DNA of 64,000 nucleotides from Eledone cirrhosa (GCA_964016885.1 CAXHJY010001283.1:11970-75969), one strand, 5' to 3'. Counted from the first letter of the stretch, positions 398-62,972 are shown. Numbers and translations are program-made. Notes: generated by a model not told the origin, from the letters alone.

Positions 398-1490
398 TGT
401 CTAAGACTAAAGTTCTAGTATGTAGAAAGGAAAATAGAGCACAGGTACCCTCTGGGAAATGGCCATGCTCACTGTGTAAGAAAATAGTAGGTAGAAACTC
501 CATATGTCCCAAATGCAAACTATGTATACATAAAAGATGTAGTGGGATCACAGGTAAGCTATCTAAGAATGTAGATTTTATATGTGGCCGATGCTCAGGT
601 GCAATAAGTAGCAGGTGCCCACAGGATACTAGCTCCTTCTGATGGTTCTATAGAAATAGTAGGCGCTTTCCATTACCTGGGGGACAAAATCAGCAGTGGA
701 GGAAGGTGTTCTGAAAGTACAGTAGCCAGAGTTAGAACGAGATGGAAAAAGTTCAGAGAGCTAATACCGCTGTTGGCCACAAGGGTTTTTTCTCTAAAAG
801 TGAAAGGCAGATTGTATGATGCTTGTATACGAACAGAGATATTACATGGTAGTGAGACATGGGCATTGTGTGGTGAAGACTTGCGTAGATTAGAAAGAAA
901 TGAAGCTTGCATGCTCTGATAGATGTGTAATAGTAATATACGCGAACAGCGAAGCATAAAAGAATTGAGAAACAGACTAAGCACAAGAGGTATCAAATGT
1001 GTTCTGTAGAGGAGATTACGTTGGTATGGACATGTGATGGGTCTGAAGGATGACAGCTGTATAAAAAAGTGCAGAGCAATGAAAATTGATGGAAGCTATG
1101 GAGTGGGTAGACCAAGAAAAATCTGGGATGAGGTGATAAAAACCTGACCTTGCCCACTTACACCTCTCTAGGACAATGACACTGCATCGAGATCTTTGGC
1201 ACCATGCAGTTGTACAGAAGACCTGCCTTCCCTTACGTTCGAAGTTAAATCTACAGTCAGTAGGCACTACTTAACCCAATTTACACCCCATCCTCCCATT
1301 TCCATTCCGTCCATTGTGTTGACACAACAGTCCACAGTATAAATGTGGTGGGTGTTAGGAAGGGCAACCAGCTGTAAAAAACTGCCAGAGACATTTCCGT
1401 ACGAGTGAGACACGGTCTCCCGACCATTCCCGCATCAAATGGAACAAAACTGTCTAACCGATGCTAGCAATGATGACAATGATGATGATA
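398..1490 (+). mobile_element. RTE-clade LINE, lineage A, 5'-truncated degraded copy (PHD finger, RT C-terminus, 3'UTR, GAT tail)
   Basis: KTKVL-CxxC...HKRC, HGSETW and RWYGHV motifs with stops; ggaagggca motif and gatgat tail; TA tracts on both sides. Confidence 0.9.
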
Positions 1491-5740: not shown

Positions 5741-6555
5741 ATCATCATTTTACGTCCGCTTTTCCCTGCTTGCAAGGGTGGGACGGGTCTTATTCAGCAC
5801 AGCATCTCTCCACTTGTCACGGTCCTTCGTCATCTCCACAGTGAGCTTCAATGATCTGATGTCTGTTCTCCCCACCTCCGCCCATGTTTTTCGTGGTCTA
5901 CCTCTACCACGTCTTCCTTCAACTGGCATTTCCTGGCACTTCTTCACCCATCGGTCACCCTCCATGTGCATCACATGTCCATACCACCTCAGTCTCCTCT
6001 CCCGTACACTACATTCTATCCCTCTCTGACACAGTTTCTCTCTCAACACATTCATGCTGGGTCGTTCACGCACATTGACATTGCACATCCAACGGAGCAT
6101 GCTTGCCTCATTCCTCTTCAGCCGTCGCATATCCTCTGCGGTTGCTGCCCATGTCTCACTACCATGCAGCATCGCGCTACTCACACAGGCATCATACAAC
6201 CAGCCTTTCGTACGCAGAGAGAAACCCTTCTTCGTCAAGAGAGGAAGCAGCTCCCTAAACTTTTTCCAACCCGTCCTTATTCTAGATACTATGGCCTCGG
6301 AACACCCTCCTCCCATGCTAATCTGATCTCCTAGGTACCGGAAGCTATCCACCACTTCTATAGCACCCACCTGCATTTGAAAAATGTGTCTATCAATGCG
6401 ACTTCTGTCTAATTTCCCTGTACATCTACTGCATACGTATTTCTCCCTGCCTGTTAGTTTGCCTGCTATCCCACTACATCTCTTGTGTACCCAGGATCTG
6501 CATTGTGTGCATTTTATAGAATTTATGCCAGTTCCTTTTCTGCATATCGAACATG
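5740..6555 (-). mobile_element. RTE LINE lineage B 3' portion (PHD finger plus RT C-terminus)
   Basis: ORF 5750..6613: [43 protein letters not shown], ending [12 protein letters not shown] followed by a GAT tail. Confidence 0.93.
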
Positions 6556-6768
6556 CTGTGCAAGTGGAGAGATTACTGATTACATTAGACAGTGTAACAC
6601 AATCTCTCTTCAATTTCTGTGCATATTGTCAATTACAATTTTATTTGATGTATCATATCTACATGTATATATATTTGCATATAATATCAATATACACATT
6701 ACACATGCTAGCAGAAAACCACTTGAAGCGTGGTTTTTCTGCTAGTAAAAACAATATCGATTACTTAC

Positions 6769-6934: not shown

Positions 6935-7978
6935 ACTTCACCCGCCCCTTCCATATTCCACCCCTCACACACACACCTCCCCAATCCACTACACCCTTCC
7001 CATCAAAGTACCTAGTACACACTGTAAAGTGGTCATGTAGGTGTCACAACAAAAAGTACTCAGTCCACACTGTAAAGTGGTCATGTAGCTGTCACAACAA
7101 AAAGTACCCAGTACACACTGTAAAGTGGTCATGTAGGTGTCACAACAACAAGTACCCAGTACACACTGTAAAGTGGTCATGTAGGTGTCACAACAACAAG
7201 TACCCAGTACACACTGTAAAGTGGTCATGTAGGTGTCACAACAAAAAGTACCCAGTACACACTGTAAAGTGGTCATGTAGGTGTCACAACAAAAAGTACC
7301 CAGTATACACTCTAAAGTGGTCATGTAGGTGTCACAACAACAAGTACCCAGTACATACTGTAAAGTAGTCATGTAGGTGTCACAACAAAAAGTACCCAGT
7401 ACACACTGTAAAGTGGTCATGTAGGTGTCACAACAAAAAGTACCCAGTATACACTCTAAAGTGGTCATGTAGGTGTCACAACAAAAAGTACCCAGTACAT
7501 ACTGTAAAGTGGTCATGTAGGTGTCACAACAAAAAGTACCCAGTACACACTGTAAAGTGGTCATGTAGGTGTCACAACAAAAAGTACCCAGTACACACTG
7601 TAAAGTGGTCATGTAGGTGTCACAACAAAAAGTACCCAGTACACACTGTAAAGTGGTCATGTAGGTGTCACAACAAAAAGTACCCAGTACACACTGTAAA
7701 GTGGTCATGTAGGTGTCACAACAAAAAGTACCCAGTACACACTGTAAAGTGGTCATGTAGGTGTCACAACAAAAAGTACCCAGTACACACTGTAAAGTGG
7801 TCATGTAGGTGTCACAACAAAAAGTACCCAGTACATACTGTAAATGAGGTTGGCATTAGGAAGGGCATCCAGCTGTATGAGCAAGAAGTAGTCACCTGAC
7901 CTAACATTGCCCACAACAGGACAACTCATCTAACCCATGCTAGAGTGGAAACATGAACATTAAACGGTGATGATGATC
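6935..7978 (+). repeat. RTE/SINE-type 3' tail whose 48-bp subrepeat is expanded to about 17-18 tandem copies
   Basis: Unit actgtaaagtggtcatgtaggtgtcacaacaaaaagtacccagtacac at 7005-7845, followed by the normal tail (ggaagggcatccagctgt...aacggtgatgatgat). Confidence 0.92.
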
Positions 7979-19039: not shown

Positions 19040-20905
19040 AGGGTGAGTAAAATTCCCCGAGATCCATGGAGAAGTTCTCTCCAGTGGTCTCTGTCCCTCA
19101 TTATCGCCGCCATGTCCTGTGTCTCCAACAGACCAGTGTCTGTCCTTAGGGCATCAACATACGTTAACCTTGGTCTTCCTCTTCCAGTGTGTCCATGTAG
19201 GGGCTCCCACAGGAGCACTGAGTGCAATGTCAACTCTGGATGTCGGTGAGCATGTCCAGCTAACCTCAGTCTTCTCTGTGTCACTTTTGAGCTGACTTTT
19301 GGGAGGCTCCCATACAGCTCTGAGTTCTTCATCCTCAGTGTATACAGATTAATGTTCAGAGCCATCCTCAGCATTCTCGTGTAGCACCCGTCCACCATCT
19401 GAGTGAGTTTCTTGGTCAGTGTCCAAGTCTCAGACCTGTACAGCAGCACAGATTCCACTACAGCAATGAGTGCCTGAGATGGAGAAGAAGCTCAGGGACA
19501 ACCAGAACGGCTTCAGAGAGGGAAGATCAACCACCAGTCACATCCTGATGCTGAGGAGGATATTATAGGGAGATAGAGCAAAGTGCCTTCCTGCGGTCAT
19601 GGTTTTCATTGACTTTAGGAAGGCCTTTGATTCTGTGGACCGTTACTGCCTGATGAAGATCTTACAGGCTTATGGCATCCCCAAGAAGATAGTGGACCTG
19701 ATATCACTGCTCTACACCAACACCCAAGTCATTACACCTGATGGGATGACAGAGTTCTTTGAGATACTGTCTGGAGTGCTCCAGGGAGATACATTGGCTC
19801 CCTACCTTTTTATCATCGTAGTGGACTATTGTATGCACCTTGCACTGGAGAAACACCAGGACTCTGGCTTTACTGTAGCACCGGCTCAGAGCAGGAGAGT
19901 TAGGGCGAAAAAGGTATCGGATGCTGAATTTGCCGACGACAGTTTTAATAATAATAATAATAATAATAATGAAATATTGTGTACAGTGCTCAGGTGCACT
20001 ACAACTCATCAAAAAGTGTATGTATAGTACATAGGGTAATGTACAAACATCAGGAAAATGAACAGTGCAAGAGTCATGATATACACATAATAATGAAATT
20101 ATTGTGTAAAGTGCTCAGGTGCACTACAACTCGTCAAAGGTGTATGTATAGTACATAGAATAATACACAAATGTCAGGGAAGTACATGTGTGTATGTGTT
20201 AGCTGTAGTGTTGGCGGATCTCGGGAAGCATGGAGGCCTTAAAGGATGCAGTGTCTCGACAGCTAACAACTGATGCAGGTAGTTTGTTCCATGCTTCAGC
20301 AACTCTGAGCGTGAAAAAATGTTTCCGAAAGTCATGGGAACTGTGCTGTTTTCTTACTTTGTAGGCATGTCCACGTGTGTTAGACACATGGAAATCAAAA
20401 AGGTACTCAGGGTTGTTGTTGGCAAGATGGTTAACAATTTTGTGGGTGTTTACCAAGTCAGTTGCCAGGCGTCGGAGCTTCAATGAAACCATGCCCAGGG
20501 AAGCAAGGCGCTCAGAGTATGGTAGATGCCTGATGGAGGGTATTCACTTGGTTGCACGTCTCTGAACAGTTTCCAGGCGGTCAATGTTGGTGACAAATAC
20601 AGTGAAGGAGGCAGAGGATTTGATGCAGGAGGTTGAGACTGTGTCGATGAGTGTGGTGCTGAGAATGAATGAGACTAAAACAAAATATCTGGTAGAGAAT
20701 GTTGAGAAGCCAGAGGGGATCAGTAATGTAGGCGGGAAGCCGCTAGAATTGGTTGAGGGCTTCCTGTATTTGGGAGCAAAGATTGGGAATACAGAAGATG
20801 ATGTGGTTGAGAGGAAGAGAAAGGCCTGGGCGGTGTGCCACAGCTTGAGTTTGGTGTGGAAGTCGGACCTTTGGAAAGACCTGAAAATCCGCCTCTTCAT
20901 TGTAA
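19040..20905 (-). mobile_element. RTE LINE lineage C with inverted 5' part (19468-20905 on +, 3' part 19040-19468 on -)
   Basis: QNGFREGRST, FIDFRKAFDSV, GVLQGDTLAPYLF, EFADD and FLYLG on +; ESVLLY.SETW...RLAGH on -; breakpoints share cattg. Confidence 0.9.
19946..20584 (-). mobile_element. CR1-clade LINE 3' end inserted just after the FADD motif of the RTE-C copy
   Basis: LETVQRRATK, YSERLASLG..SL..RR..DL, NTRGH..K, RKHFFTLRV..WNKLP; (ATT)n tail. Confidence 0.9.
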
Positions 20906-27432: not shown

Positions 27433-29810
27433 ATTGACTTCTTGCTAATTAGGCAAATACTAAGGCATACCCTGGGGAAGAATGTACCGCCCAACACAGG
27501 TTAGTTGTTAGTGACATCTCAGTAAGCAAGAGATGGAATGAGACATACAGGAAGGTGTGGAAAAAAAAAGTCTGGAAGCTAAAAGACCTTTCACTTAAAT
27601 ATAAATTTAGGAAAGCCCTTCAAGATGTGTATGACGAAAAAGAAGACGATTTAGAATTGTATGACATAGATGATAACTGGAATTTCTTACGTGACAACTT
27701 ACTGCAGGCTACTGATGAAACTTGTGGCTGGAGCAGAGCTCCAATCAGACAGAGAGTGAACTGGTGGTGGAACAGCACAGTAGATAAGGCCATTAGAGAC
27801 AAAAGACTAGCATGGAAGGCTTGGAAAAAGGGTGGGAGTAGGGAAGGATATACAGCCGCTAAGAGAGAAGCTAGACGTCAGGTGTACTTAGCACACAGGG
27901 AGGCGGAGAGTAGGGGGTTTGCCAATGTTCTGCGACGGGAAAATCAGAGGCGTGCGGTGTTCCACATTGCAAGGCAGTGTGTCAATGCAAATCAGGATAT
28001 TGTGGGAGATAAATGTGTCCAGGATGATGCCGGTGTACTTAGTGTCACGAATGATCAGAAAAAGGAGGCCTGGAAATGTCATTATGAGAGACTGGTGAAT
28101 GTGGAGAACGAATGGGAGAGAGAGAAATTACCCTTAATAGATCCGACAGAGGGACCAGCTATTGAGATTGACGAATATAGGGTCCAAGAGGTGATTAGGG
28201 AAATGAAAAATGGTAAGGTTGCTGGACCATCGGGGATAGTTGCTGAGATGCTGAAGGCATCAGGGGACGTAGGCACTAAACTGGTTGCACGCATCATCAA
28301 TCAGGCTATATATGGTGGTGTCATACCCAAAGACTGGTGCAGCAGTATTCTCATAAATTGCTACAAAGGTAAAGGGAATGCTCTGGAGAGGAGCAATTAT
28401 AGGGGTATAAAACTGATAGATCAGGTTATGAAAGTGGCAGAAAGGATATTAGCACAACTAATTAGAGAAAGGGTCAAACTAGATGAGATGCAGTTTGGTT
28501 TTGTGCCTGGGAAGAGTACAACAGATGCCCTCTTCTTGGTGAGACAATTACAAGAGAGGTTCTTAGGGAAAAATAAGCCACTATACTTAGCCTTTGTTGA
28601 CCTAGAGAAGGCCTTTGACAGGGTACTCCGATCTGTCATCTGGTGGTCCCTAAGGAAACTAAGTGTTGAAGAATGGCTTGTGAGGACAGTGCAAACTTTG
28701 TACAGAGGTACTGTCAGTAAAGTCAGGGTAAGAATGGAGTTTAGTGAGGAATTCCAGATTCAAGTAGGAGTACATCAAGGTTCGGTCCTCAGCCCACTCT
28801 TATTCATTATAGTCCTCCAAGCCATAACAGAGGAGTTTAAGACTGGCTGTCCATGGGAACTTCTCTATGCTGACGATCTGGTTCTTATAGCAGAATCAGT
28901 AGAGGAGCTAGAGAATAAATTCTAGCTATGGAAACAGCAGTTGGAAGCAAGAGGACTGAGAGTGAACGAAGCTAAGACAAAAATGTTGATGAGTAGAAAA
29001 GAGGAAATGGCTATGTTCGATATGCAGAAAAGGAACTGGCATAAATTCTATAAAATGCACACAATGCAGATACTGGGTACACAAGAGATGTAGTGGGCTA
29101 GCAGGCAAACTAACAGGTAGGGAGAAATACGTATGCAGTAGATGTACAGGCAAATTAAACAGAAGTCTCATTGATAGACAAATTTTTCAAATGCAGGCAG
29201 GTGCTATAGAAGTGGTGGATAGCTTCCGGTACCTAGGAGATCAGATTAGCATGGGAGGAGGGTGTTCCGAGGCCATAGTATCTAGAATAAGGATGGGTTG
29301 GAAGAAGTTTAGGGAGCTGCTTCCTCTGTTGACGAAGAAGGGTTTCTCCCCGCGTACGAAAGGCCGGTTATAAGATGCCTGTGTGAGGAGCGCGATGCTG
29401 CATGGTAGTGAGACATGGGCAGCAACTGCAGAGGATATGCGACGGCTGGAGAGAAATGAGGCAAGCATGCTCCGTTGGATGTGCAGTGTAAATGTGTGTG
29501 AACGACCCAGCATGAATGTGTTGAGAGAGAAACTGTGTCTGAGAGGGATAGAATGTAGTGTATGGGAGAGGAGACTGAGGTGGTATGGACATGTGATGCG
29601 CATGGAGGATGACCGATCGGTGAAGAAGTGCCAGGAAATGCCAGTTGAAGGAAGACATGGTAAGAGGTAGACCACGAAAAACATCATATCGTTGAAGCAC
29701 ACGGTGGAGATGACGAAGGACCGTGAAAAGTGGAGAGATACTGTGCTGAATAAGACCCGTCCCACCCTTGCAAGCAGGGAAAAGCAGACGTTAAATGATG
29801 ATGATGATAA
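27433..29810 (+). mobile_element. RTE lineage B, long copy (endonuclease end, RT, PHD, C-terminus, GAT tail)
   Basis: ORF 27555..28925 with QFGF, DLEKAFD, GVHQGS and YADD, then disrupted PHD and C-terminus. Confidence 0.95.
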
Positions 29811-37440: not shown

Positions 37441-38654
37441 TTCCAAACCTGGAAGCAGGGACTAGAGAGAAAGGGCCTCAAAGTCAACATGACAAAGACT
37501 AAGGTCCTTATAAGTAGACGAGAAAACAGAACCCAGATCCCCTCAGGGAAATGGCCTTGCTCAGTATGTAGGAAAGGTGTAGGTAGGAACTCCATTCTTT
37601 GCCCCAAATGCAAACAATGGGTACACAAGAGATGTAGCGGGATCTCAGGAAGCTTAATTAAGAATGTAGGATTCACATGCAGCAGCTGTGCTGAAACAGC
37701 AAGCAAACAGCCACAGGAAACAAGTACCACCAATCTCTGGGAGGGCCCTGTAGAAACAGTAGACAGCTTCTGCTACCTAGGTGACCGAATTAGCAACGGA
37801 GGTGGGTGCTCAGAAAGTACAATAACTAGGGTAAGAACGGGATGGAAGAAGTTTAGGGAACTACTACCACTGCTAGCTGCAAAAGGCTTCTCCCTCAGAA
37901 TGAAAGGCAGACTGTATGATGCGTGTATCCGAACAGCGATGTTGCATGGTAGTGAGACCTGGGCGCTGAAGGTGGAAGACTTACGTAGATTAGAGAGAAA
38001 CGAAGCCTGCATGCTCCGATGGATGTGTAACAGTAATATACGTGAACGACAAAGCATAAATGAATTGAGAGAGAGACTGAGCATAAGAGGAATCAAATGC
38101 TGCGTGCAGGAGAGGCGGTTACGCTGGTATGGACATGTGATGCGTATGAAGGATGACAGCTGCATAAAAAGGTGCAGAGCACTAGAAGTTGATGGAAACC
38201 GCGGAGTGGGGAGACCCAAGATGACTTGGGATGAGGTGATAAAAGCCGACCTTACCCAACTACACCTCTCAAAGTCAATGACACACGACCGTGACTTCTG
38301 GCGTCACGCAGTAATACAGGGTACCCGACCTCCCATGGGTACATGCTGAAGCATATAAACAATATGCCCCCCCCCCCCCCACCGCAAGGTGGTCGTGGAG
38401 GTGCCACGGCAAAAAAGCACCCAGCCCACACTGTAAAGTGGACGTGTAGGCGCCACGAAAAAGCACCCAGCACTCACTGTAAATGAGGTTGGTGTTAGGA
38501 AGGGCATCCAGCTGTAGAAATCAAGCCAGATCAGTTCCTGTATGAGCAAGGCATGGTCAGCCGACCAGACACTGCCCACAACAGGACAACCCGTCTAACC
38601 CATGCTAGCGTGGAAGAACGGACGTAAAACGGTGATGATGATGATGATGATGAT
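37441..38654 (+). mobile_element. RTE lineage A2, young 5'-truncated copy with an open PHD plus C-terminal frame
   Basis: ORF 37378..38349; 3'UTR with short subrepeats; GAT tail. Confidence 0.95.
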
Positions 38655-42314: not shown

Positions 42315-43720
42315 GTCCATCAGGTCTCTGTTCTTAGCCCTCTTCTGTTTATTATCGTTCTGCAGGCAATAACGGAGTTTAAGACTGGCTGTCCATGGGA
42401 ACATCTGTATGCAGATGACCTAACCCGTATAGCCAAATCTATAGCTGAACTAGAGATGAAATTCCAAACCTGGAAGCAAGGCCTAGAATCTAAAGGTCTT
42501 AAAATCAACCCTGGCAAAGACTAAAGTCCTAGTAAGTAATAGGGATAACAGAGTACAGATCTCCTCTGGGAAATGGCCCTGTTCAGTGTGCAGAAAAGGA
42601 GTAGGTAGAAATTCCATTCTATGTTCCAAATGCAAGCAATGGGTACACAAGAGATGTAGTGGGATCTCAGGCAGGCTAACAAAGAATGTAGGTTTTACTT
42701 GTGGCCGGTGCACAGGGGCAGTAAGTAGCAAGAACCCTCAGGATATAATCACCTTCAAATGCTCAGAGGGTTCAGTTGAAGTGGTAGATAGTTTCTGTTA
42801 CCTGGGAGACTAAATCAGCAATGGGGAGGTGGTGGGGTTGTTCTGAAAGTAGCCAGAGTGAGATCGGGTTGGCAAGAGTTCATGGAGCTACTACTGCTGC
42901 TCACTACAAAAGGTTTTCCCCTCAAAAGGAAAGGCAGACTCTATGATACATGTATACAAACAACAATGTTTCATAGCAGCGAGACCTGGGCACTGTGTGC
43001 TGAGGACCTGCAAAGATTGGAAAGAAATGAAGCCTCCATACTTCACTGGATGTGCAATAGCAATATACGTGGACGGCAAAGTATAAATATACTATAGGAG
43101 AAATTAGACATAAGAGCAATCAGATGTGTTCAGGAGAAGAGATTACATTGGAATGGACATGTGATGTGTATGAAAGATGACAGCTGTATAATAAGGTGCA
43201 GAGTGCTCAAAGTTGATGGTAACCATGGTGTGAGCAGGCCTAGGAAGACTTGCGATGAGGTGATAAGAGCTGACTTTGCACAATTACACCTCACTCTGGT
43301 GCTATGCAGTTTTACAGAAGACCCACCCTCCATTGTTCTAGGGTTGAGGCATATACCTAGTAGGCAACATCTTCCTCAACCTGCTATCCTCTCCCATCCA
43401 CCTCCCTTAGCAGTAACCATATCTCCCCTACTACCCCGCCCCACTCTCCCTAGTCCCCACTGTGTTGTGTCGGTGACACAACAAAGGTACCCAGTCCACA
43501 CTGTAAAATGGACATGTAAACGACATGACAAAAAGTACCCAGCACACACTGTAAATGTGGTTGATGTTAGGAAGGGCATCCAGCTGTAGAAAACCAGCCC
43601 GAAACTCTCCTATATGAGCAACATATGGTCACTCGACCCAACTTGCCTCTAATTGGGACAAACCCGTTTAACCCATGCTAGCATGGAACATAAACATTAA
43701 TCGATGATGATGATGATGAA
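42315..43720 (+). mobile_element. RTE lineage A degraded copy (RT, PHD, 3'UTR)
   Basis: [18 protein letters not shown] cysteines, GAT tail ending 30 nt from a NIPSNAP donor site. Confidence 0.9.
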
Positions 43721-44716: not shown

Positions 44717-44994
44717 AATATGGTTAACTTGCATAAAATAAAGATGCACAGAAAATGATTGACGCAAACATATGATTAAATCTAATGAATGTCACTGCCT
44801 ATGGTTTTCAAATATTTTTGAAAATAATAAAGAATTTGGAGGGATTTCAAAATTAACGTTCTCATTATTAATTTGGTGTTTGGAACATAACTTAAAGGTT
44901 CTTACATAAAATGGAAAGTTTTTAGTTAAATATAACACTTTAACATAAACAGTTTTGTATCACAGAACCAGGAGTGTCAAGGACAAAACTTATC

Positions 44995-46103
44995 ACTGTA
45001 AAGTGGTTATGTAGATGTCACAACAAAAAGTACCCAGTCCACACTGTAAAGTGGTCATGTAGGTGTCATAACAAAAAGTACCCAGTCCACACTGTAAAGT
45101 GGTCATGTAGGTGTCACAACAAAAAGTACCCAGTATACACTGTAAAATGGTCATGTAGGTGTCACAACAAAAAGTACCCAGTACACACTGTAAAGTGGTC
45201 ATGTAGGTGTCACAACAAAAAGTACCCAGTACACACTGCAAAGTGGTCATGTAGGTGTCACAACAAAAAATAGCCAGTACACACTGTAAAGTGGTCATGT
45301 AGGTGTCACAACAAAAAATAGCCAGTACACACTGTAAAGTGGTCATGTAAGTGTCACAACAATAAGGACCCAATACCCACTGTAAAGTGGTCATGTAGGT
45401 GTCACAAGTATCCAGTACATACTGTAAAGTGGTCATGTAGGTGTCGCAACAAAAAGTACCCAGTCCACACTGTAAAGTGGTCATGTAGGTGTCACAACAA
45501 GTACCCAGTACACACTGTAAAGTGGTCATGTAGGTGTCGCAACAAAAAGTACCCAGTCCACACTGTAAAGTGGTCATGTAGGTGTCACAACAAGTACCCA
45601 GTCCACACTGTAAAGTGGTCATGTAGGTGTCGCAACAAAAAGTACCCAGTACACACTGTAAAGTTGTCATGTAGGTGTAACAACAAAAAGTACCCAGTAC
45701 ACACTGTAAAGTGGTCATGTAGGTGTTGCAACAAAAAGTACCCAGTACACACTGTAAAGTTGTCATGTAGGTGTCGCAACAAAAAGTAACCAGTACACAC
45801 TGTAAAGTGGTCATGTAGGTGTCGCAACAAAAAGTAACCAGTACACACTGTAAAGTGGTCATGTAGGTGTCACAACAAAAAGTACCCAGTCCAAACTGTA
45901 AAGTGGTCATGTAGGTGTCATGACAAAAAGCACCAAGCGTGTATGTGGTTAGTGTTAGGAAGGGCATCCAGCTGTAGAAATCTAGCTAGAAACAGTTCTA
46001 TATGAGCAAGACAGTCACCTGACCCAACTTGCCTCCAATGGAACAAACCTGTATAACCCATGCTACCGTGGAACATGGACGTTAAACAATGATAAATGAT
46101 GAT
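44995..46103 (+). repeat. Second RTE/SINE tail with an expanded 48-bp (some 42-45-bp) subrepeat, about 20 copies
   Basis: Same unit as 7005-7845, followed by ggaagggcatccagctgtagaaa and a tail. Confidence 0.92.
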
Positions 46104-46114
46104 ATGTATGTATA

Positions 46115-49095
46115 TATCCATGCATCTTTCCAGTCTCATTTTCACCAAAACAAAATAAAAGTCACATCACCTTTTTAAGTGGCTGTCTCCACCATCACCT
46201 CAAGTTCCACCCCACCTCTTACTTTGCTCCCACCACTGAGCTCATCCTTATCCACTCCTCTTGCCAGCTCATGCAGGCGACTATCCAATCAATACTCGAC
46301 CGAGATCTCCCCAAGGCCTACCTCCACCCCCTCATCCAATTCATCCTTTACCTCAATCGCCACCTCTTCAATTTCCTCACTTCCATTAAAAACAAGAAAC
46401 TCCACTCACTCCACTCCCCACCACCACCCATACTCATATCACCTCCAACCCTAACCCCTCTATCCCGTCACCTACCATCCCCTTTCCTCTCCCCACCACT
46501 GAATCTGCACACGCTTTGCCCAACCACCTTAATCCCTCTTCCTCTCTCACATCCCTGCACTGTAGTCATCATACCCCAGGACGTACCACTCCCCGAAGCT
46601 GAGTGTTCCCTCCTCGCCCATGGTTTGCATTTTATACCAACCACATCTACCTGCAATGAGTTTCACACACGTACAGATATTGAAGGGTTCTTTCGTTGAT
46701 TAAAGCTGAAAGCTTTTTTTCACGACACAGACGGATGACTTCACTCGTCTCAGTCACCAGCAATCAGACTGGACGCCGAGCTCTGGCCAGTTCACCACCC
46801 TCGACTCCTTTGTCGATACTTGTCGACGTACTGTGAACCGCTTCCGTTTCCACCAGCATTCTCGTCGCTCTAACATTACGCTGGCTGAGCTCTCTGCAAC
46901 CCACAGCATCGCGATGACATTGTCATCAAACCCGCTGACAAAGGTGGCACTGTGGTGGTTTGGAGCGCTGACCTTTATAAGGCTGAGGCCCTTCACCAAT
47001 TCACGATACCCTTTTTTATTGCCCTTTATCCTCCAACCCCACTCTTGGCTATCAACAACTCGTGCCCTCCACCTCCACCAGCTCATCTCCTCCTCTCTCC
47101 TACCCCCCTCCCCAACCACAAACCTCATAGTATGCACCTCTCGTACACCCACCATCTACTTCCTCCCCAAAATACACAAACAAAATAATCTCGGCCGTCC
47201 TATCGTTTCTGCGTGCAACTGCCCCACCAAGATAATTTCCGAGTATTTAGACACCATCCTTGCCCCGTTGGTCGGCAATATCCCCTCCCACATCCACAAT
47301 ACTAATCATGCCCTTAGACTCTTCAACTCTTTCTCCCTCCCCTCCCCAGCCCCTCTCGCCTTCTCTTTACCCTGGACATCACCTCTCCCTATACCGTCAT
47401 CCCTCATGATGGCCTCCAACAATTTTTAGACTTAAGCCCTACCTCTGACCCCAGCATTACCACTCTTCTCCGCCTGGCTGAGCTTGTTCTCACCCTCAAT
47501 GGGTTTTCCTTTTCCGGTGAATTCTATCAGCAGGTCTCTGGGTAGCGATGGGACCCAGAATAGGACCAAACTATGCCAACTTGTTTGTTGGCTATGTCGA
47601 AGCCCAGATCTTCTCCCAGTATGCTGGACCGACTCCTGAGCTATATGGTCGTTATATTGACAACTGTATCGGTGCCACCTCTCTATCACGTGAACAGCTC
47701 GACTGCTTTCTATCTTTTGTCCTATCTTTCCATCCTGCTCTCACCTTCACCGATTCTTGCCTCTTTTCTAGATATCTCTCTATCTATCACTCTCACCACA
47801 CCCTCTCTACTTCCGTCTATAAACCAACAGACTCCCACTCTTATCTCGACTTCACCTTCTCCCATCCAAACCACACCAAACACTCCATACGCTATTCCTA
47901 ATTCCCATCTTTGTCGGCTCTGTAGCCAGGACGATTTCAAAGCCCATTCCCTTCACATGGCTTCCTGCTTCATCCAACATAGATATCCCTCCACCCTGAT
48001 CAAAGCTGCTCTCACCCACGCCCATGAAATTAACCACCCCATCACCCTGGCGACATATCCTCTGTTCCTTCCGCACTCTTCTCTTCTTGTTTTTTCCTAA
48101 CCCACCTATTACCATATTTAAGCGCGCCCGTAACCTCCTGGTAGATAGTTCCTTTATGTCCTCTTCCACGACTCCACCTGGCTCTCATCCTTGTTCTTGT
48201 CCCCGCTGCAACACTTGTCCTTTCATTTCCAACCTTACAGGCCCTAACGGATTATTCCATATCCGCCACTCCTTCACATGCACCTCCACCCACATTGTCT
48301 ATGCCCCCCCCCCCCCCCCCCCCTGTTCCCTTTGCGGAGCCTTATACATCAGACAAACGGGACACCGTTTTGCTGAACATTTGAGGAACATACAACTCGG
48401 TTTGGATACTCCCGTTCTTCTGGTCATTCTTCCCTACATGTCTCAGTCCTGGGTGTCACTTTACATCACAGATCACAGGCCTCGTGCACTAGGACTCAAC
48501 AGAGTCTGATTTACCGCCTTGGGTCCTGTTTCCCTCATGAACTCAACTCCCCTCCCCAATTTCTTTAATACCCCGTCCGTTATCACACACACTTGTACAT
48601 TCACCCCTAGATTTCTATCACTCTTTCATGATCATAAACATACTCTTACAACTAATACAGACCAACAAAATACACACACTCCACTTTTCCCTTCACAGCT
48701 CTGTATACACACACACCCCCTTATAGTAACATACTTTTGCTCATAGCTTCGTACTTACAAGCACACACAATCTTCTACTTACATATACACACACGCGCAC
48801 AAGTATAGCTCTTTATACAAAACATTTTTTTTTGTATTGCAGTTAGACACGCTCTATCGCCAGCATCAACAGTTTTGCAAGAGATGTCAACATGAATGGA
48901 CCTATTATTTTTATCTAAAGAGATTTTTTCCAATTCCACCCCGATTGTCCCTTCAATCTATTTTATTTCGCATTCTTTCTTCTGATGGACTAGTGTCCGA
49001 AAAGTTAAGACCCTCTTTCTGCTATTTCAAGCGTTAACCTAATATATACCTTCCATATACTGTACCGATTGTGTTATTTCAGTTTACCTTTTACA
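46115..49095 (+). mobile_element. Penelope-like retroelement (Neptune-type), near full length but degraded: RT plus GIY-YIG, with 3' pLTR
   Basis: KPADKGG, YFLPKIHK..GRPIVS, G.AMG...PNYANLF, RYID, YKPTDSHSYL, CxxxRCxxC linker, IVY..C..C.ALYI.QTG..RF.EH; decayed hammerhead at about 48978-49010. Confidence 0.9.
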
Positions 49096-54243: not shown

Positions 54244-56413
54244 TCATCATCATCACCATCATCATCAGGTTTAGCGTCCGTGTTCCACGCTTGCATGGGT
54301 TTGGACGGGGGTTTTCCCACTTGAGGCAAGAGTGGTTGTCTTGCTCGCATAGGACTGTCTGGCGGGTTTTCTACAGTTGGATGCCCTTCCTAACACCAAC
54401 CACATTTACAGTGTGGGGCTGGGAGGTTTTTACCGTGTTGCCTACACGGCCACATTTACAGCGTGGACTGTGTGTTTTTTGTCGTGACACCTACACGATC
54501 TCATTTGTTTCGGCCTGGATGTTGTGGGACCAACATAACTTTACATTGAAAGGGGCGGTGTGGGTGGGGTGGAGGTGGTGGGACGGGGGTGTGTTTTGAT
54601 AGAGATGCCTACTGACTGTAGTAGGTTTTTACTTTGTATTTAGGTAAGGCGGGTCTTCTCTATTACTGAGTACCGCCAAAGGTCTCGGTCCAGTGACATT
54701 GTCTTGGAGAGGTGTAAGCGTGTGAGGTCGGAATTTATCAGCTCGTCCCATGTTTTTCTGGGTCTGCCTACTCCGTGGCTACCGTCTATCTTTATTGCCC
54801 TGCACTTTGTTATACAGCTGTCGTCTTTCATGTGCATCATGTGACCGTACCAACGTAGCCTTCTCTCGAGTAAACAACATCTGATCCCTCTTATTTCTAA
54901 TTTTTTCCTTAGTTCGTTTATGCTTTGCCGTTCACGTATATTACTATTGCACATCCAGCGGAGCATGCAAGCTTCGTTCCTCTCTAGTCTGCGTATATCC
55001 TCTGCACACAATGCCCAGGTCTCACTGCCATGCAGCATTGCTGTTCGTATGCAGGCATCGTATAACCTGCCTTTCATTTTTAGGGAGAACCCTCTAGCGG
55101 CTAATAGTGGTATAAGCTCTCTGAACTTTTTCCATCCAGTTCTGACTCTAGCTACTGTACTTTCAGAGCACCCTCCCCCACTGCTGATTTTGTCACCCAG
55201 ATAACGGAAGCTGTCCACTATTTCTATAGAACCCTCTGCGCAGTTGAAGGAGCTAGTATTTTGTGGGCACTTGCTGCTACTTATTGCACCAGAGCACCGG
55301 CCACATGTAAAATCTATGTTCTTAGTTAGCTTACCTGTGATCCCACTACATCTTTTATGCACCCATACTTTGCATTTGGGACATAAAATGGAGTTTCTAC
55401 CTACGCCTTTCCTACACACTGAGCATGGCCATTTCCCCGATGGGACTGCCGCCTTATTTTCTTTCCTACAAACTAGAACTTTAGTCTTAGCCAGGTTAAT
55501 TTTAAGGCCTTTTGATTCTAGGCCGTGCTTCCACGTTTGGAATTTCTTCTCTAGTTCGGTCGTTGATTCAGCTATGAGCGTTAGATCATCTGCGTATAGG
55601 AGTTCCCATGGGCAGCCGGTCTTGAACTCCTCTGTTATAGCCTGAAGGGCAATAATAAATAGTAGGGGGCTAAGAACAGAGCCCTGATGGACACCAACTT
55701 TTACGCTAAACTCTTCACTATATTCGTTGTTAATTCTAACCTTACTGACTGTTTCTTTATACATGGCTTGTATAGCTCTCACAAGCCATTCGTCAACACC
55801 TAGTTTTCTAAGAGACCACCAGATAATGGAACGGGGGACTCTGTCGAAGGCTTTCTCCAAGTCGACGAAAGCTAAGTATAGGGGTTTACTTTTAGCTAGG
55901 TACTTCTCCTGTAGTTGTCGTACAATGAAAAGAGCGTCTGTGGTACTTTTGCCTGACACAAACCCGAACTGCATTTCATCTAGATCAATTCTCTCTCTGA
56001 TTAGTTGCGCTATTACTTTTTCCGTGACCTTCATGACCTGGTCGATTAATTTAATGCCTCTATAGTTACTCCTATCTAGGGCATCTCCTTTTCCCTTATA
56101 GCAGTTAACGATGATGCTGCTACGCCATTCCTTCGGAACAACCCCATTCTGTACGACTTGGTTAACTATCCGGGTGACCATGGTGTGTCCCACCGAACCA
56201 GATGCCTTCAGCATCTCAGCAACTATTTCCGAAGGCCCAGCCGCCTTACCCGTCTTCATATCCTTGATTGCCTTACTTATTATACTACCCTCGACTAACA
56301 CTGCTGGTCCCTCTATTGGGTCGATCTGGGGGAGACTGTCTTTCTCCCATTTGTTCTCCTCATTTAGAAGCCTTTCGTAGTGACACTTCCAAGCTACCTT
56401 CTTATCAGCGTCG
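54244..56413 (-). mobile_element. RTE lineage A, young copy with an uninterrupted RT-PHD-C-terminal frame
   Basis: ORF 54640..56793 from TDADKK onward has no stops; 3'UTR and GAT tail. Confidence 0.97.
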
Positions 56414-56427
56414 GTATATATATATAC

Positions 56428-56458
<31 letters not shown>

Positions 56459-56487
56459 CATATATACATATACATATATATATATAC

Positions 56488-56520
<33 letters not shown>

Positions 56521-56551
56521 CATATATTTATATATATATATACATATATAC

Positions 56552-56606
<55 letters not shown>

Positions 56607-56703
56607 CATATATACATATATATATATACATATACATATATATATATACATATACATATATATATATATACATATACATATATATACATATATATATATA
56701 TAA
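56414..56703. repeat. (TA)n/(TACA) microsatellite between two divergent RTE copies
   Basis: Direct observation. Confidence 0.95.
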
Positions 56704-59700
56704 ATAATAATATCTGCGTATGCACCCCAATCCGGACTGCCCGGCACTATAAAAGACAGATTCTATGAGACACTGATGCTCACTACCTCCCAAATATCTG
56801 ACAGTGACTATATAATTATTGCAGGCGACCTAAATGGTCACGTTGGGCAACATTGTGACGGCTACGACGAAATCCATGGAGGCTATGGGTTTGGTACTAG
56901 AAATGAGGAAGGCTCCAGAATCCTGGAATTCTGTGATGCAAATAACCTAACTATCTGTAACACTAACTTCAAAAAACGTGACAATCACCTGATCACCTAT
57001 AGATCCGGGGAACACACAAGCCAGGTAGATTATATCCTTACCAGAAGACGTGACAGAGTGTCTGTTGTAAACACTAAATCCCTCCCCCATGAAGAATGCA
57101 CCTCCCAACATAGACTGATAATTAGCGACCTCATAGTCAGGTCGAGACGTACTCGACAGCAGAAGAGGACTATCCTCAGGAGAAAAATATGGAAGCTAAA
57201 GGACCCCACAGCCAAAAATAAATTTCAAAACATATTACTTGATGCTTTCGACAGTAAGGAAGAACACTTAGAGTCGGACAATATAGAGGGACAGTGGGAA
57301 TTTCTGAAAGCAAACCTGCTGTTGGCCACAGACGAAGTCTGTGGCTGGAGCAGGCCTGTAGGCAGGAGGAGAGTAACATGGTGGTGGAACAGTAAGGTGG
57401 AGGAGTCAATTAAGGCCAAAAAGCAGGCTTGGAAAGTATGGCGGGATGGGGGAAGTAGAGTAGACTATCAAGTGGCCAGGAGGGAAGCTAGGAGAGAAGT
57501 GTACTTAGCAAGAAGGGAAGCTGAGGAAAGAAAGTTCAAGCATGTCCTACAACGCGATGACCAAAAACGTGAGGTGTTCAGGATTGCTAGGCAATGCGTC
57601 AAGGAAAACCGTGATATTGTCGGGGAGAAGTGTGTACTTAACGATGATGGCATACTTGCCATCACCGACACTGATAAGAAGGCAGCTTGGAAGTGTCACT
57701 ATGAAAGGCTACTAAATGAGGAGAATAAATGGGAGAAAGACAGTCTCCCCCATGTCGACCCAATAGAGGGACCAGCAGTGTTAGTCGAGGGGAGTATAAT
57801 AAGTAAGGCAATCAAGGATATGAAGACAGGTAAGGCGGCTGGGCCTTCGGAAATAGTTGCTGAGATGCTGAAGGCATCTGGCACGGTGGGACACACCATG
57901 GTCACCCGCATAGTTAACCAAGTCGTACAGAAATGGGGCTGTTTCCGAAGGACTGGCATAGCAGCATCATCGTTAACTGTTATAAGGGTAAAGGAGACGC
58001 CCTAGATAGGAGTAACTATAGAGGCATTAAATTAATCGACCAGGTCATGAAGGTCACAGAAAAAGTAATAGCGCAACTAATCAGAGAGAGAATTGACCTA
58101 GATGAAATGCAGTTCGGGTTTGTGTCAGGCAAAAGTACCACAGACGCTCTTTTCATAGTACGACAACTACAGGAGAAGTACCTAGCTAAAGGTAAACCCC
58201 TCTACTTAGCTTTTGTCGACTTGGAGAAAGCCTTCGACAGAGTCCCCCGCTCCATTATCTGGTGGGCTCTTAGAAAACTAGGCGTTGACGAATGGCTTGT
58301 GAGGGCTATACAAGCCATGTATAAAGAAACAGTCAGCAAGGTTAGAATTAACAACGAATATAGTGAAGAGTTTAGCGTAAAAGTTGGCGTCCATCAGGGC
58401 TCTGTTCTCAGCCCCCTACTATTTATTATTGCCCTTCAGGCTATAACAGAGGAGTTCAAGACAGGCTGCCCATGGGAACTCCTATACGCAGACGACCTGA
58501 CACTCATAGCGGAATCAATGGCCGAGCTAGAGAAGAAATTCCAAACATGGAAGCACGGCCTAGAGTCAAAAGGACTTAAAATTAACCTGGCTAAGACCAA
58601 AGTTCTAGTTTGTAGGAAAGAAAACAAGGCGGCGGTCCCTTCTGGGAAATGGTCGTGCTCGGTGTGTAGGAAAGGCGTAGGTAGAAACTCCATTTTGTGT
58701 CCTAAATGCAAAGTATGGGTGCATAAAAGATGTAGTGGGATCACAGGTAAGCTAACTAAGAACATAGATTTTACATGTGGCCGGTGTTCTGGTGCAATAA
58801 GTAGCAGCAAGTGCCCACACAATACTAGCTCTTTCAATTGCGCAGAGGGTTCTATAGAAATAGTGGACAGCTTCCGTTACCTGGGCGATAAAATCAGCAG
58901 TGGGGGAGGGTGCTCTGAAAGTACTGTAGCTAGAGTCAGAACTGGTTGGAAAAAGTTCAGAGAGCTTATACCACTATTAGCTGCTAAAGGGTTCTCCCTA
59001 AAAATGAAAGGCAGGTTGTACGATGCCTGCATACGAACAGCAATGTTGCATGGCAGTGAGACCTGGGCATTGTGTGCAGAGGATATACGCAGACTAGAGA
59101 GGAACGAAGCTTGCATGCTCCGCTGGATGTGTAACAGTAATATACGTGAACGGCAAAGCATAAACGAACTAAGGAAAAAATTAGAGATAAGAGGGATCAG
59201 ATGTTGTTTACTCGAGAGAAGGCTACGTTGGTATGGACACGTGATGCGCATGAAAGTCGATAGCTGTATAACAAAGTGCAAGCCAATAAAGATAGACGGT
59301 AGCCACGGAATAGGCAGACCTAGAAAAACCTGGGACGAGCTGATAAACTCCGACCTCACACACTTACACCTCTCCAAGACAATGTCACTGGACCGAGACC
59401 TTTGGCGGTACTCAGTAACAGAGAAGACCCGCCTTGCCAGTAGGCATCTCTAACAAAATACACCCCGTCCCACCACCACCACCCCCACCCCATCCACACC
59501 ACCCCGTCCTATGTAAAGTTATGTTGGTGCCGCGCCATCCGGGCCGAAACAAATGAGATCGTGTAGGTGTCACGACAAAAAAACACACAGTCCACGCTGT
59601 AATGTGGCCGTGTAGGCAACACGGTAAAAACCTCCCAGACCCACACTGTAAATGTGGTTGGTGTTAGGAAGGGCATCCAACTGTAGAAAACCTGCCAGAC

Positions 59701-59814
59701 AGTCCTATGCGAGCAAGACAATCACTCTTGCCTCAAGTGGGACTACCCCCGTCCAAACCCATGCAAGCGTGGAACACGGACGTTAAACGTTGATGATGAT
59801 GATGATGATGATGA
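56704..59814 (+). mobile_element. RTE lineage A, young near-complete copy (APE endonuclease, RT, PHD), one frameshift near 57935
   Basis: SAYAPQ, GDLNGH, QVDY, SQHR; ORFs 56776..58005 and 57933..59453. Confidence 0.97.
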
Positions 59815-61875
<2,061 letters not shown>

Positions 61876-61887
61876 GTATATATATAT

Positions 61888-62972
61888 ATCATCATCATCA
61901 TCATTTTACGTCCGCTTTTCCCTGCTTGCAAGGGTGGGACGGGTCTTATTCAGCACAGCATCTCTCGACGCGTCACGGTCCCTCGTCATCTCCACCATGA
62001 GCTTCAATGATCTGAGGTCTGTTCTCACCACCTCCGCCCATGTTTTTCGTGGTCTACCTCTACCACGTCTTCCTTCAACTGGCATTTTCTGGTACTTCTT
62101 CACCCATCGGTCATCCTCCATGCGCATCACATGTCCATACCATCTCAGTCTCCTCTCCCGTACACTACATTCTATCCCTCTCAGACACAGTTTCTCTCTC
62201 AACACATTTATGCTGGGTCGTTCACGCACATTTACACTGCACATCCAACGGAGCATGCTTGCCTCATTTCTCTCCAGCCGTCGCATATCTTCTGCGGTAG
62301 CTGCCCATGTCTCACTACCATGCAGCATCGCGCTCCTCACACAGGCATCATACAAACGGCCTTTCGTACGCAGGGAGAAACCCTTCTTCGTCAACAGAGG
62401 AAGCAGCTCCCTAAACTTCTTCCAACCCGTCCTTATTCTAGATACTATGGCCTCGGAACACCCTCCTCCCATGCTAATCTGATCTCCTAGGTACCGGAAG
62501 CTATCCACCACTTCTATAGCGCCCTCTCGCATTTGAAAAATGTGTTTATCAGTGCGACTTCTACTGTTTAATTTCCCTGTACATCTACTGCATACATATT
62601 TCTCCCTGCCTGTTAGTTTGCCTGCTATCCCGCTACATCTCTTGTGTACCCAGGACCTACATTGTGTGCATTTTATAGAATTTATGCCAGTTCCTTTTCT
62701 GCATATCGAACATGGCCATTTCCCTGACGGAATCAGGGTTTTGTCCTCTTTTCTACTCATCAACACTTTTGTCTTAGCTAGATTTACTCTCAGTCCTCTT
62801 GCTTCCAACTGCTGTTTCCATAGCCGGAATTTATTCTCTAGCTCCTCTACTGATTCTGCTATAAGAGCCAGATCGTAAGCATAGAGAAGTTCCCATGGAC
62901 AGCCAGTCTTAAACTCCTCTGTTATGGCTTGGAGGACTATAATGAACAAGAGCGGGCTGAGGACCGAACCCT
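61888..62972 (-). mobile_element. RTE lineage B, young 5'-truncated copy (YADD changed to YAYD)
   Basis: ORF 61906..62949 with intact PHD finger; TA tracts on both sides. Confidence 0.95.

What the first reader, a model, noticed from the sequence alone, without database searches (positions are those of the whole stretch)
58656..58787. RTE LINEs carrying a PHD-type zinc finger inside the reverse transcriptase
Seen: a C-x2-C-x10-C-x2-C-x4-H-x2-C-x14-C-x2-C domain ([28 protein letters not shown]...CGRC) lies between the late RT motifs [11 protein letters not shown] and [11 protein letters not shown]. All eight ligands keep identical spacing in divergent lineages A (54640..56793, 57933..59453) and B (61906..62949, 5750..6613), while the residues between them differ. 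Lineage C in this window has only a short linker at the same spot (KTKYLVENVEKPEGISNVGGKPLELVEGFLYLG), an internal control that the finger is an insertion. Established: C4HC3 is the PHD signature; PHD fingers in LINEs are best known from CR1/L2 ORF1, and RTE ORFs usually lack a C-terminal Cys-rich domain. Inference: a chromatin-reading or nucleic-acid-binding module (it is K/R-rich) grafted into the RT could steer integration or recognise the element's RNA. I cannot tell whether this has been described elsewhere.
Basis: partly seen in the sequence, partly recalled or inferred. Interest (0 to 1): 0.78.

Follow-up and report, generated by a model that had tools for sequence, protein, structure and literature searches.

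The report
LINE polymerase with built-in PHD finger
An abundant jumping-gene family with thousands of near-identical copies carries a conserved PHD zinc finger inside its reverse transcriptase, and its copies sit mostly in CpG-depleted DNA, so the finger likely steers insertion by docking on the chromatin of what are probably active, methylated genes.

Summary
Confirmed. A C4HC3 PHD finger (above the Pfam cut-off; predicted PHD fold) lies in frame between RT motifs 6 and 7 of single-ORF APE-RT LINEs, where R2's target-DNA-reading 6a loop sits. It marks one lineage: 81 of 84 close relatives picked by the RT core keep it; 0 of 36 distant ones have it. It is under purifying selection. It keeps four of five Pygopus methyl-lysine pocket positions but is basic and lacks two key acids. 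It is not needed for (TA)n landing: finger-less lineage C lands there too. New result: flanks of finger-bearing families are CpG-depleted (41 of 54 loci below o/e 0.6) against 9 of 56 for finger-less RTE-like families, in both young and old comparisons; random loci 12 of 35 (the contrast with random weakens under the strictest masking). Best reading: a chromatin-docking module biasing insertion to methylated gene bodies (0.5). Binding is untested, and the contrast is one lineage against two. Ten literature searches found no description; Repbase and Dfam could not be checked.

The parts
58656..58787 (+). C4HC3 PHD finger inserted in the RT, first to last Cys; the aromatic residue of the predicted pocket lies just before it at 58650-58652
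57918..59453 (+). RT-bearing frame of a lineage-A copy (511 aa): RT core, YADD at 58485, finger, thumb and C-terminal helices; no C-terminal zinc knuckle found by Pfam
58572..58604 (+). RT motif 6 ([11 protein letters not shown]), start of the beta-hairpin that carries the finger
58872..58886 (+). RT motif 7 / primer grip (FRYLG), after the finger
56704..58005 (+). 5'-truncated APE endonuclease and linker of the same copy; frame break near 57930-57945
59454..59791 (+). 3' UTR of the element
59792..59815 (+). (GAT)n tail, followed by an imperfect (TA)n array to about 61216
55294..55425 (-). finger in a second lineage-A copy (54250-56414)
62581..62712 (-). finger in a lineage-B copy
6422..6553 (-). 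finger in a lineage-B copy truncated just upstream of it
29014..29145 (+). finger in a broken lineage-B copy
37558..37689 (+). finger in a lineage-D copy (third young family)
42580..42711 (+). finger in an old lineage-E copy
466..594 (+). decayed finger, one residue short
20677..20775 (+). finger-less motif 6-7 linker of lineage C (control)

Best explanation
A lineage of single-ORF APE-RT LINEs carries a conserved, basic PHD finger at the tip of the RT motif 6-7 hairpin, and this finger likely docks the element's protein-RNA complex on nucleosomes of what are probably methylated, transcribed gene bodies, biasing insertion there. Shown: the insertion, its PHD identity, its conservation, and the CpG-depleted surroundings of copies. 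Predicted: the fold. Inferred: (1) the finger faces upstream target DNA, by analogy with R2's 6a loop at the same site; (2) its Pygopus-like pocket holds a methylated lysine, probably of histone H3, while the basic surface grips nucleosomal DNA; (3) CpG-depleted DNA marks methylated gene bodies; (4) the finger, not another part of the element, causes the bias. The fine choice of (TA)n within that compartment would come from the APE and tail microhomology, as in finger-less lineages.
For: Position: the match to R2Bm RT ends at its residue 666-668, and R2Bm loop 6a, residues 672-677 between motifs 6 and 7, reads upstream target DNA and is needed for nicking (PMC10499050, passages). The model places the folded finger (pLDDT 73-88) between strands 223-232 and 305-321 of an otherwise R2/L1-like RT. 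Pocket: the best PHD match by profile is Pygopus (E 1.2e-6; Z 5.8, rmsd 2.5 A over 50 residues, tied with TAF3, ARID5, PHF23 and BPTF). Pygo's K4me cavity is W366, Y341, D352, V350, A356 (PMC2726290, passages). By the alignment, the equivalents in 106 finger-bearing rows are W 105, aromatic or His 97, V 90, S/A/C 106, and I357-equivalent I 98. Net charge is positive in 106 of 106 rows, mean +6.0. Selection: finger pN/pS 0.18-0.32 with near-saturated synonymous sites, first half as constrained as the RT core; 6 of 7 differences inside the finger in four other runs are synonymous. Location: CpG o/e below 0.6 in 24 of 35 young finger loci against 4 of 19 young finger-less loci (Mann-Whitney p=2.5e-4), and 17 of 19 old finger loci against 5 of 37 finger-less C loci (p=1.9e-6); finger against random 41 of 54 against 12 of 35 (p=0.0025). 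CpG loss tracks TpG/CpA gain (rho -0.75, 138 loci). In O. bimaculoides, methylation marks bodies of expressed genes and not transposons (PMC9476566, passages).
Against: No binding was shown. The finger lacks the D352 equivalent (loop two residues shorter), and none of the four commonest residues at the E360-equivalent site is acidic, although E360 is needed for H3 binding in Pygo. H3-reading PHD pockets are usually acidic and this one is basic. H3K4me3 promoters would be CpG-rich, the opposite of what is seen, so the mark would have to be another one. The location contrast is one finger lineage (A, B, E are kin) against two finger-less lineages that differ in every other domain too. Against random loci the effect weakens under the strictest masking (35 of 45 against 16 of 28, p=0.07) and for young copies unmasked (21 of 40 against 14 of 35, p=0.17), so part of the contrast may be finger-less families avoiding this compartment. 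The first small test did not separate finger from C (46 against 16 loci, p=0.18). No gene annotation or methylome of this genome was available. The finger's place in the complex rests on motif equivalence, not on a superposition.
Confidence: 0.5

Rival explanations
1. The finger binds nucleic acid only: it is an enlarged 6a-type clamp on upstream target DNA (possibly sensing methylated CpG), or on the element's RNA, and its aromatic pocket stacks on bases or methyl groups, not on a histone lysine.
For: Basic in 106 of 106 rows, with near-invariant KG, NS and HK/R; acidic H3-anchoring residues missing; R2's 6a loop at the same site contacts DNA with His and Lys; two PHD fingers that bind DNA and not histones are known (PMC6222470, passages). 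Methyl-CpG sensing would also give the CpG-depleted flanks.
Against: The two known DNA-binding PHDs are atypical C3HC2H domains lacking histone-binding residues, whereas this one is canonical C4HC3 with four of five Pygo cavity positions kept. No sequence-specific target was seen beyond (TA)n, which finger-less elements share.
Confidence: 0.28
2. The finger serves RT mechanics or binds a non-histone host protein (as Pygo PHD binds BCL9), and the CpG-depleted location comes from another domain, from the timing of expression, or from nesting of copies beside older kin.
For: Only one lineage-level contrast is available; finger loci carry more LINE sequence nearby than random loci (mean 0.12-0.16 against 0.05); the contrast with random is weak under strict masking.
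Against: The bias holds in young (0.2-0.5% divergence) and old families and after masking all shared repeats (35 of 45 against 10 of 40, p=2.7e-7). Conservation is highest on the pocket half of the finger, not the half that binds BCL9 in Pygo.
Confidence: 0.17
3. The finger is what targets the element to (TA)n microsatellites.
For: 44 of 77 finger copies have TA-rich 3' flanks against 6% background; the point estimate is above lineage C's.
Against: Finger-less lineage C is also strongly TA-associated (7 of 18 linked ends, p=0.19 against finger lineages; 4 of 6 long-frame copies), and 33 of 77 finger copies are not in TA-rich sites.
Confidence: 0.05

Closest known systems
RTE-clade LINEs (single ORF, APE + RT, short tandem 3' tail), nearest being finger-less fish elements from Hemibagrus (Expander/Rex3-like; that label is recalled, not from a call)
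   Same: One 1084-aa ORF with APE and RT, (GAT)n tail, no recognisable ORF1; 45% identity in the RT core and collinear on both sides of the insert.
   Different: The motif 6-7 linker is 93-100 residues with a PHD finger instead of 32.
RTE-2_OV of Octopus vulgaris (PMC9115989; passages and section 8 read)
   Same: Full-length, single-ORF, recently active octopus RTE with a zinc finger.
   Different: Its finger is a terminal C2H2, listed after EN and RT; the passages read mention no PHD domain or intra-RT insertion.
R2Bm RT loop 6a (PMC10499050; passages)
   Same: An insertion between RT motifs 6 and 7 used for target choice in R2; same site by alignment.
   Different: 6a is a six-residue loop that reads a DNA motif in an RLE-type, site-specific element; here it is a folded two-zinc domain in an APE-type element without strict site specificity.
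PHD fingers of CR1/L2 LINEs (PMC4120745; passages)
   Same: A PHD in a LINE, proposed there to help general genome targeting, with no functional study known to those authors.
   Different: Those lie in ORF1 or at the N-terminus of the single ORF or ORF2, in the Jockey group; none is described inside the RT in the passages read.
Pygopus PHD finger (PMC2726290; passages)
   Same: Best profile match; Y341, V350, A356, I357 and W366 equivalents are kept.
   Different: No D352 or E360 equivalent, shorter loops, basic instead of acidic surface; embedded in a polymerase.

Membership tests
PHD finger | C4HC3 ligand pattern | tested here: met
   All eight ligands present in 106 of 106 aligned finger-bearing rows; 39 of 42 rows match the spacing pattern, 32 with exact spacing.
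PHD finger | Pfam PF00628 above gathering cut-off, ahead of C1 and RING models | tested here: met
   27.8-33.1 bits against cut-off 24; C1 and RING models below their cut-offs.
PHD finger | Cross-brace fold with a two-stranded sheet | tested here: met
   Predicted model pLDDT 90-95 over the finger; top matches are PHD domains: TAF3 rmsd 1.9 A over 47 columns but E 0.038, Pygo Z 5.8. Scores are modest, as for any 50-residue domain. Zinc binding itself not tested.
H3K4me-reading PHD (Pygo/TAF3/BPTF type) | Methyl-lysine cavity: wall Trp, second aromatic, hydrophobic base | tested here: met
   Trp 105 of 106, aromatic or His 97, Val 90, small residue 106; by sequence alignment only.
H3K4me-reading PHD (Pygo/TAF3/BPTF type) | Acidic residues anchoring H3 A1/R2 and K4me2 (Pygo E360, D352) and an acidic binding face | tested here: not met
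   D352 site deleted; commonest residues at the E360 site are S, T, G, Q; net charge positive in all 106 rows.
H3K4me-reading PHD (Pygo/TAF3/BPTF type) | Binding to methylated H3 tail | not testable with these tools
   Needs a binding assay.
C1 domain | His about 12 residues before the first Cys pair and H-x2-C-x7-C ending | tested here: not met
   No conserved upstream His; a terminal C-x2-C pair follows after 13-15 residues; Pfam C1 below cut-off. The C1 pattern is recalled.
RTE-clade LINE | Single ORF encoding APE then RT | tested here: met
   1084-aa ORF with PF03372/PF14529 and PF00078; 20 of 20 loci picked for long frames show it; upstream of it in L050 only one 112-aa low-complexity ATG frame.
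RTE-clade LINE | Short 3' UTR ending in a simple tandem repeat | tested here: met
   About 340-base UTR and (GAT)n tail in 20 of 20 long copies and 30 of 30 further A loci.
RTE-clade LINE | RT groups with named RTE reference elements in a tree | tested here: inconclusive
   The tree holds no named Repbase references; nearest finger-less relatives are unnamed Hemibagrus elements whose Expander/Rex3 identity is recalled.

The most novel reading that the evidence does not exclude
A widespread, undescribed lineage of RTE-type LINEs has built an epigenetic reader into the target-sensing 6a position of its polymerase and uses it to home to the methylated, transcribed gene-body compartment of animal genomes: the LINE counterpart of chromovirus integrase chromodomains, with an unusual basic PHD that may read a gene-body mark or methylated DNA together with the nucleosome.
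Probability: 0.35. Interest if true: 0.85.

Novelty: new variant of a known kind. Interest (0 to 1): 0.68.

Why it matters
APE-type LINEs are generally thought to choose sites through the endonuclease alone, and the role of PHD fingers in LINEs has been proposed but, per PMC4120745, not tested. This family offers a clean test: a 64-residue insertion at a site known to sense target DNA in R2, a finger-less sister lineage, many intact near-identical copies, and a measurable genomic bias. If true, a major share of intron growth in this 3-Gb genome would be steered by an element-encoded chromatin reader, and the RT motif 6-7 hairpin would be shown to tolerate a whole targeting domain, which matters for retrotransposon-based gene insertion tools.

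Tried and rejected
Chance or artefact: rejected; the finger is in frame in 150 of 150 scored genome matches and in unrelated hosts. C1 or RING identity: rejected. Finger-driven (TA)n targeting: not supported; the count of 18 of 32 for lineage C included 3' ends of neighbouring copies and is replaced by 7 of 18 (11 of 29 loci had no linked end). Promoter/H3K4me3-island targeting: flanks are CpG-poor, not CpG-rich. Age as the cause of the CpG contrast: tested with old finger family E and a young finger-less family, not supported; the youth of that family is inferred from tied scores and intact 1,125-1,254-aa frames, not measured. CpG transition excess inside copies (A 4.1, D 4.8, E 3.9, B 2.3, F 2.8, C 1.9) is inconclusive, because counts share one reference copy per family. 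Phage records hold no match to the finger. No RNA holder was listed for the stretch. Cluster look-ups gave almost no host names. Literature: ten searches, of which some aimed at prior description, found none; Kapitonov and Jurka 2003 and Kapitonov et al. 2009 were not held. PMC3747384, PMC9004415, PMC12988792 and PMC9329655 (passages) added nothing on an intra-RT PHD.

Full report
1. Observation. The Cys/His pattern is at 58656-58787 in frame within a 511-aa RT frame (57918-59453), between [11 protein letters not shown] and FRYLG. Pfam calls it PHD above the curated cut-off, in this copy and in lineages B and D; C1 and RING models stay below theirs. The window holds 10 finger-related stretches. 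This copy itself is dead: 5'-truncated, with a frame break near 57930-57945, ending in a (GAT)n tail and (TA)n array.

2. The element. The own genome (3.0 Gb) gave 72,543 candidates for the finger region; the 150 scored were all 100% identical over 143 aa. The B and D queries gave similar candidate numbers and 150 of 150 scored at 99-100%; the candidate sets overlap and are not copy numbers. Twenty loci picked for long frames all held a 1085- or 1099-aa stop-to-stop frame with APE, RT and PHD; in L050 no convincing ORF1 lies upstream. Copies differ from one reference copy by 0.2% (A, 43 copies), 0.5% (B, 28) and 0.35% (D, 18), so three finger families are recently active.

3. Spread and origin. 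Searches with the finger region gave 10 longer and 29 similar-length proteins, 39-64% identical, including a catfish gene model and Octopus proteins. To avoid selecting for the finger I searched with the RT core alone (2180 hits, best 120 listed). Of 84 at 60% or more, 77 matched the full pattern, 4 more have a finger with altered spacing (read by eye), 1 is degenerate, 1 frameshifted and 1 lacks it. Of 36 near 45%, 34 have no finger and 2 are truncated; nearly all are copies of one Hemibagrus family, so they count as one or two lineages. The linker is 93-100 residues against 32. In a 53-row RT-core tree (30 of the 77 finger rows drawn at random, 4 of the 36 distant rows, plus variants, octopus-like lineages and 9 earlier hits) the finger-bearing rows lie on one side of a branch (93/82; the finger-less fish group 97/82), and the two finger-less exceptions nest among finger rows as decayed copies. 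One gain in a common ancestor is the simplest reading; the root is midpoint only and lineage C is on a very long branch.

4. Selection. Between families A, B and D synonymous sites are near saturation (pS 0.70-0.83); finger pN/pS is 0.18, 0.25 and 0.32 with bootstrap intervals below 0.6, the first half 0.08-0.20, like the RT core (0.09-0.13), while the linker after the finger is 0.60-0.75 with intervals reaching 1. In contigs of four other public runs, 6 of 7 differences inside the finger and 25 of 29 overall are synonymous.

5. Structure and position. AlphaFold2 on a 42-row alignment gave pLDDT 83.8, pTM 0.79; the finger (73-88) sits between strands 223-232 and 305-321, with flexible linkers. 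The rest matches R2 and L1 RTs. The finger alone (106 rows) reached pLDDT 90-95 over its core and matches PHD domains at modest scores. The sequence match to R2Bm ends at its residue 666-668; R2Bm's 6a loop, 672-677, lies between motifs 6 and 7, reads the upstream motif and is needed for nicking (PMC10499050, passages). I could not superpose coordinates, so the finger's facing of upstream DNA is inferred.

6. What kind of PHD. The best profile match among solved PHDs is Pygopus. Pygo's methyl-lysine cavity is W366, Y341, D352, V350 and A356, and E360 and I357 are also needed (PMC2726290, passages). By the pairwise alignment, the family keeps W (105 of 106), an aromatic or His (97), V (90), S/A/C (106) and I (98), but the D352 site is deleted, the E360 site is mostly S/T/G/Q, and net charge is +1 to +11, mean +6.0 (rows were chosen for having an intact finger). 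So a methyl-lysine-like pocket survives on a basic surface. The two DNA-binding PHDs in PMC6222470 (passages) are atypical in fold, unlike this one. It works like a reader in outline but fails one defining feature of H3K4me readers, so I do not file it as one.

7. Where copies lie. TA-rich 3' flanks: A 18 of 30, B 16 of 29, D 10 of 18; finger-less C 7 of 18 linked ends; random 241 of 4000 windows; finger against C p=0.19. The finger is therefore not needed for (TA)n use. CpG content differs. An exploratory test on short flanks showed finger loci below random (p=5e-5, windows not independent) but not below C (p=0.18). On new 5-kb flanks (20 A, 20 B, 40 C, 35 random, all on the four largest contigs) the finger-against-C difference was p=7e-6. 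Because C is older, I added 20 loci of an old finger family (E, 83-90% aa) and 20 of a young finger-less BovB-like family (F; that label is recalled). After masking LINEs and low complexity, and dropping loci with under 1000 bases left (4 A, 1 B, 3 C, 1 E, 1 F), median CpG o/e was A 0.53, B 0.44, E 0.38, C 0.74, F 0.75, random 0.72; below 0.6: 41 of 54 finger, 9 of 56 finger-less, 12 of 35 random. Young against young p=2.5e-4, old against old p=1.9e-6, finger against random p=0.0025. Finger against finger-less held unmasked (p=4e-6) and with all shared repeats masked (p=2.7e-7), but finger against random fell to p=0.02 and 0.07. The 0.6 line was taken from the gap in the data; the rank tests do not use it. 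CpG loss tracks TpG/CpA gain (rho -0.75), the signature of germline methylation. In O. bimaculoides methylation marks bodies of expressed genes and not transposons or promoters (PMC9476566, passages). Elements 0.2-0.5% diverged cannot have caused depletion over 5 kb, so the compartment predates them (inference). The weakness is that A, B and E are kin: this is one contrast against two outgroups.

8. Mechanism. Most likely (0.5) the finger tethers the ribonucleoprotein to nucleosomes of methylated gene bodies through a methyl-lysine pocket plus basic DNA contacts, after which the APE nicks AT-rich DNA nearby. Rivals: nucleic-acid-only binding, including methyl-CpG sensing (0.28); a mechanical or host-protein role with the bias from elsewhere (0.17); (TA)n targeting (0.05).

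9. Known systems and novelty. Closest are finger-less RTE-type LINEs, R2's 6a loop, CR1/L2 ORF1 PHDs (PMC4120745, passages) and Pygo PHD. RTE-2_OV has a terminal C2H2, not this finger (PMC9115989, passages and section 8). Seven searches aimed at prior description found none, but the RVT_1 + PHD pairing is already in precomputed domain tables and Atlas clusters, Repbase and Dfam were out of reach, two key papers were not held, and no supplements were read; I put about 40% on the architecture being noted somewhere, much less on the pocket analysis or the location bias. The scan had no note on this sequence; one note describes a Tudor-plus-finger insert in a Perkinsus LINE RT, unchecked here. Verdict: real, a new variant of a known kind, interest 0.68.

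Noticed in passing
L121, L112, L100, L093, L128, L130, L125, L038 (finger families); L083 (lineage C): The same locus-specific micro- or minisatellite unit (about 9-32 bases, not always TA-based) is tandemly repeated on both sides of very young insertions or right after the tail. Either such arrays are preferred targets or insertion amplifies the target duplication; it is not finger-specific.
   Followed up: partly
window 7010-7814 and 8010-16697: A 48-base satellite of 17 and 181 copies that by eye resembles an internal repeat of the elements' 3' UTR; a similar array lies near 44944-45985. Possibly LINE-derived satellite DNA; not aligned.
   Followed up: partly
L118-L121, L123-L126, L128-L131: Twelve lineage-D copies are 5'-truncated at the same point in the RT. 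The query began at such a junction, so this is partly selection, but it hints at a truncation hot spot.
   Followed up: no
window 58560-58960: Near-identical DNA is listed in public runs labelled with 14 coded organisms and three environmental metagenomes; two of four laid runs cover all 30 bins. Close kin or horizontal spread; cannot be told here.
   Followed up: partly
proteins P0001, P0011, P0130: A catfish slc22a21 gene model contains a finger-bearing element, and bacterial MAG records (Herbaspirillum; Thiodiazotropha from a lucinid clam) hold such elements, most likely as host contamination.
   Followed up: no
window 46103-48509: Broken frames that by eye resemble a Penelope-like RT and GIY-YIG endonuclease; label recalled, not scanned.
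   Followed up: no
L274-L277, L204, L232, L240: A second young, finger-less RTE-like family with many intact frames of about 1,200 aa (23,665 candidates); used only as a control.
   Followed up: partly
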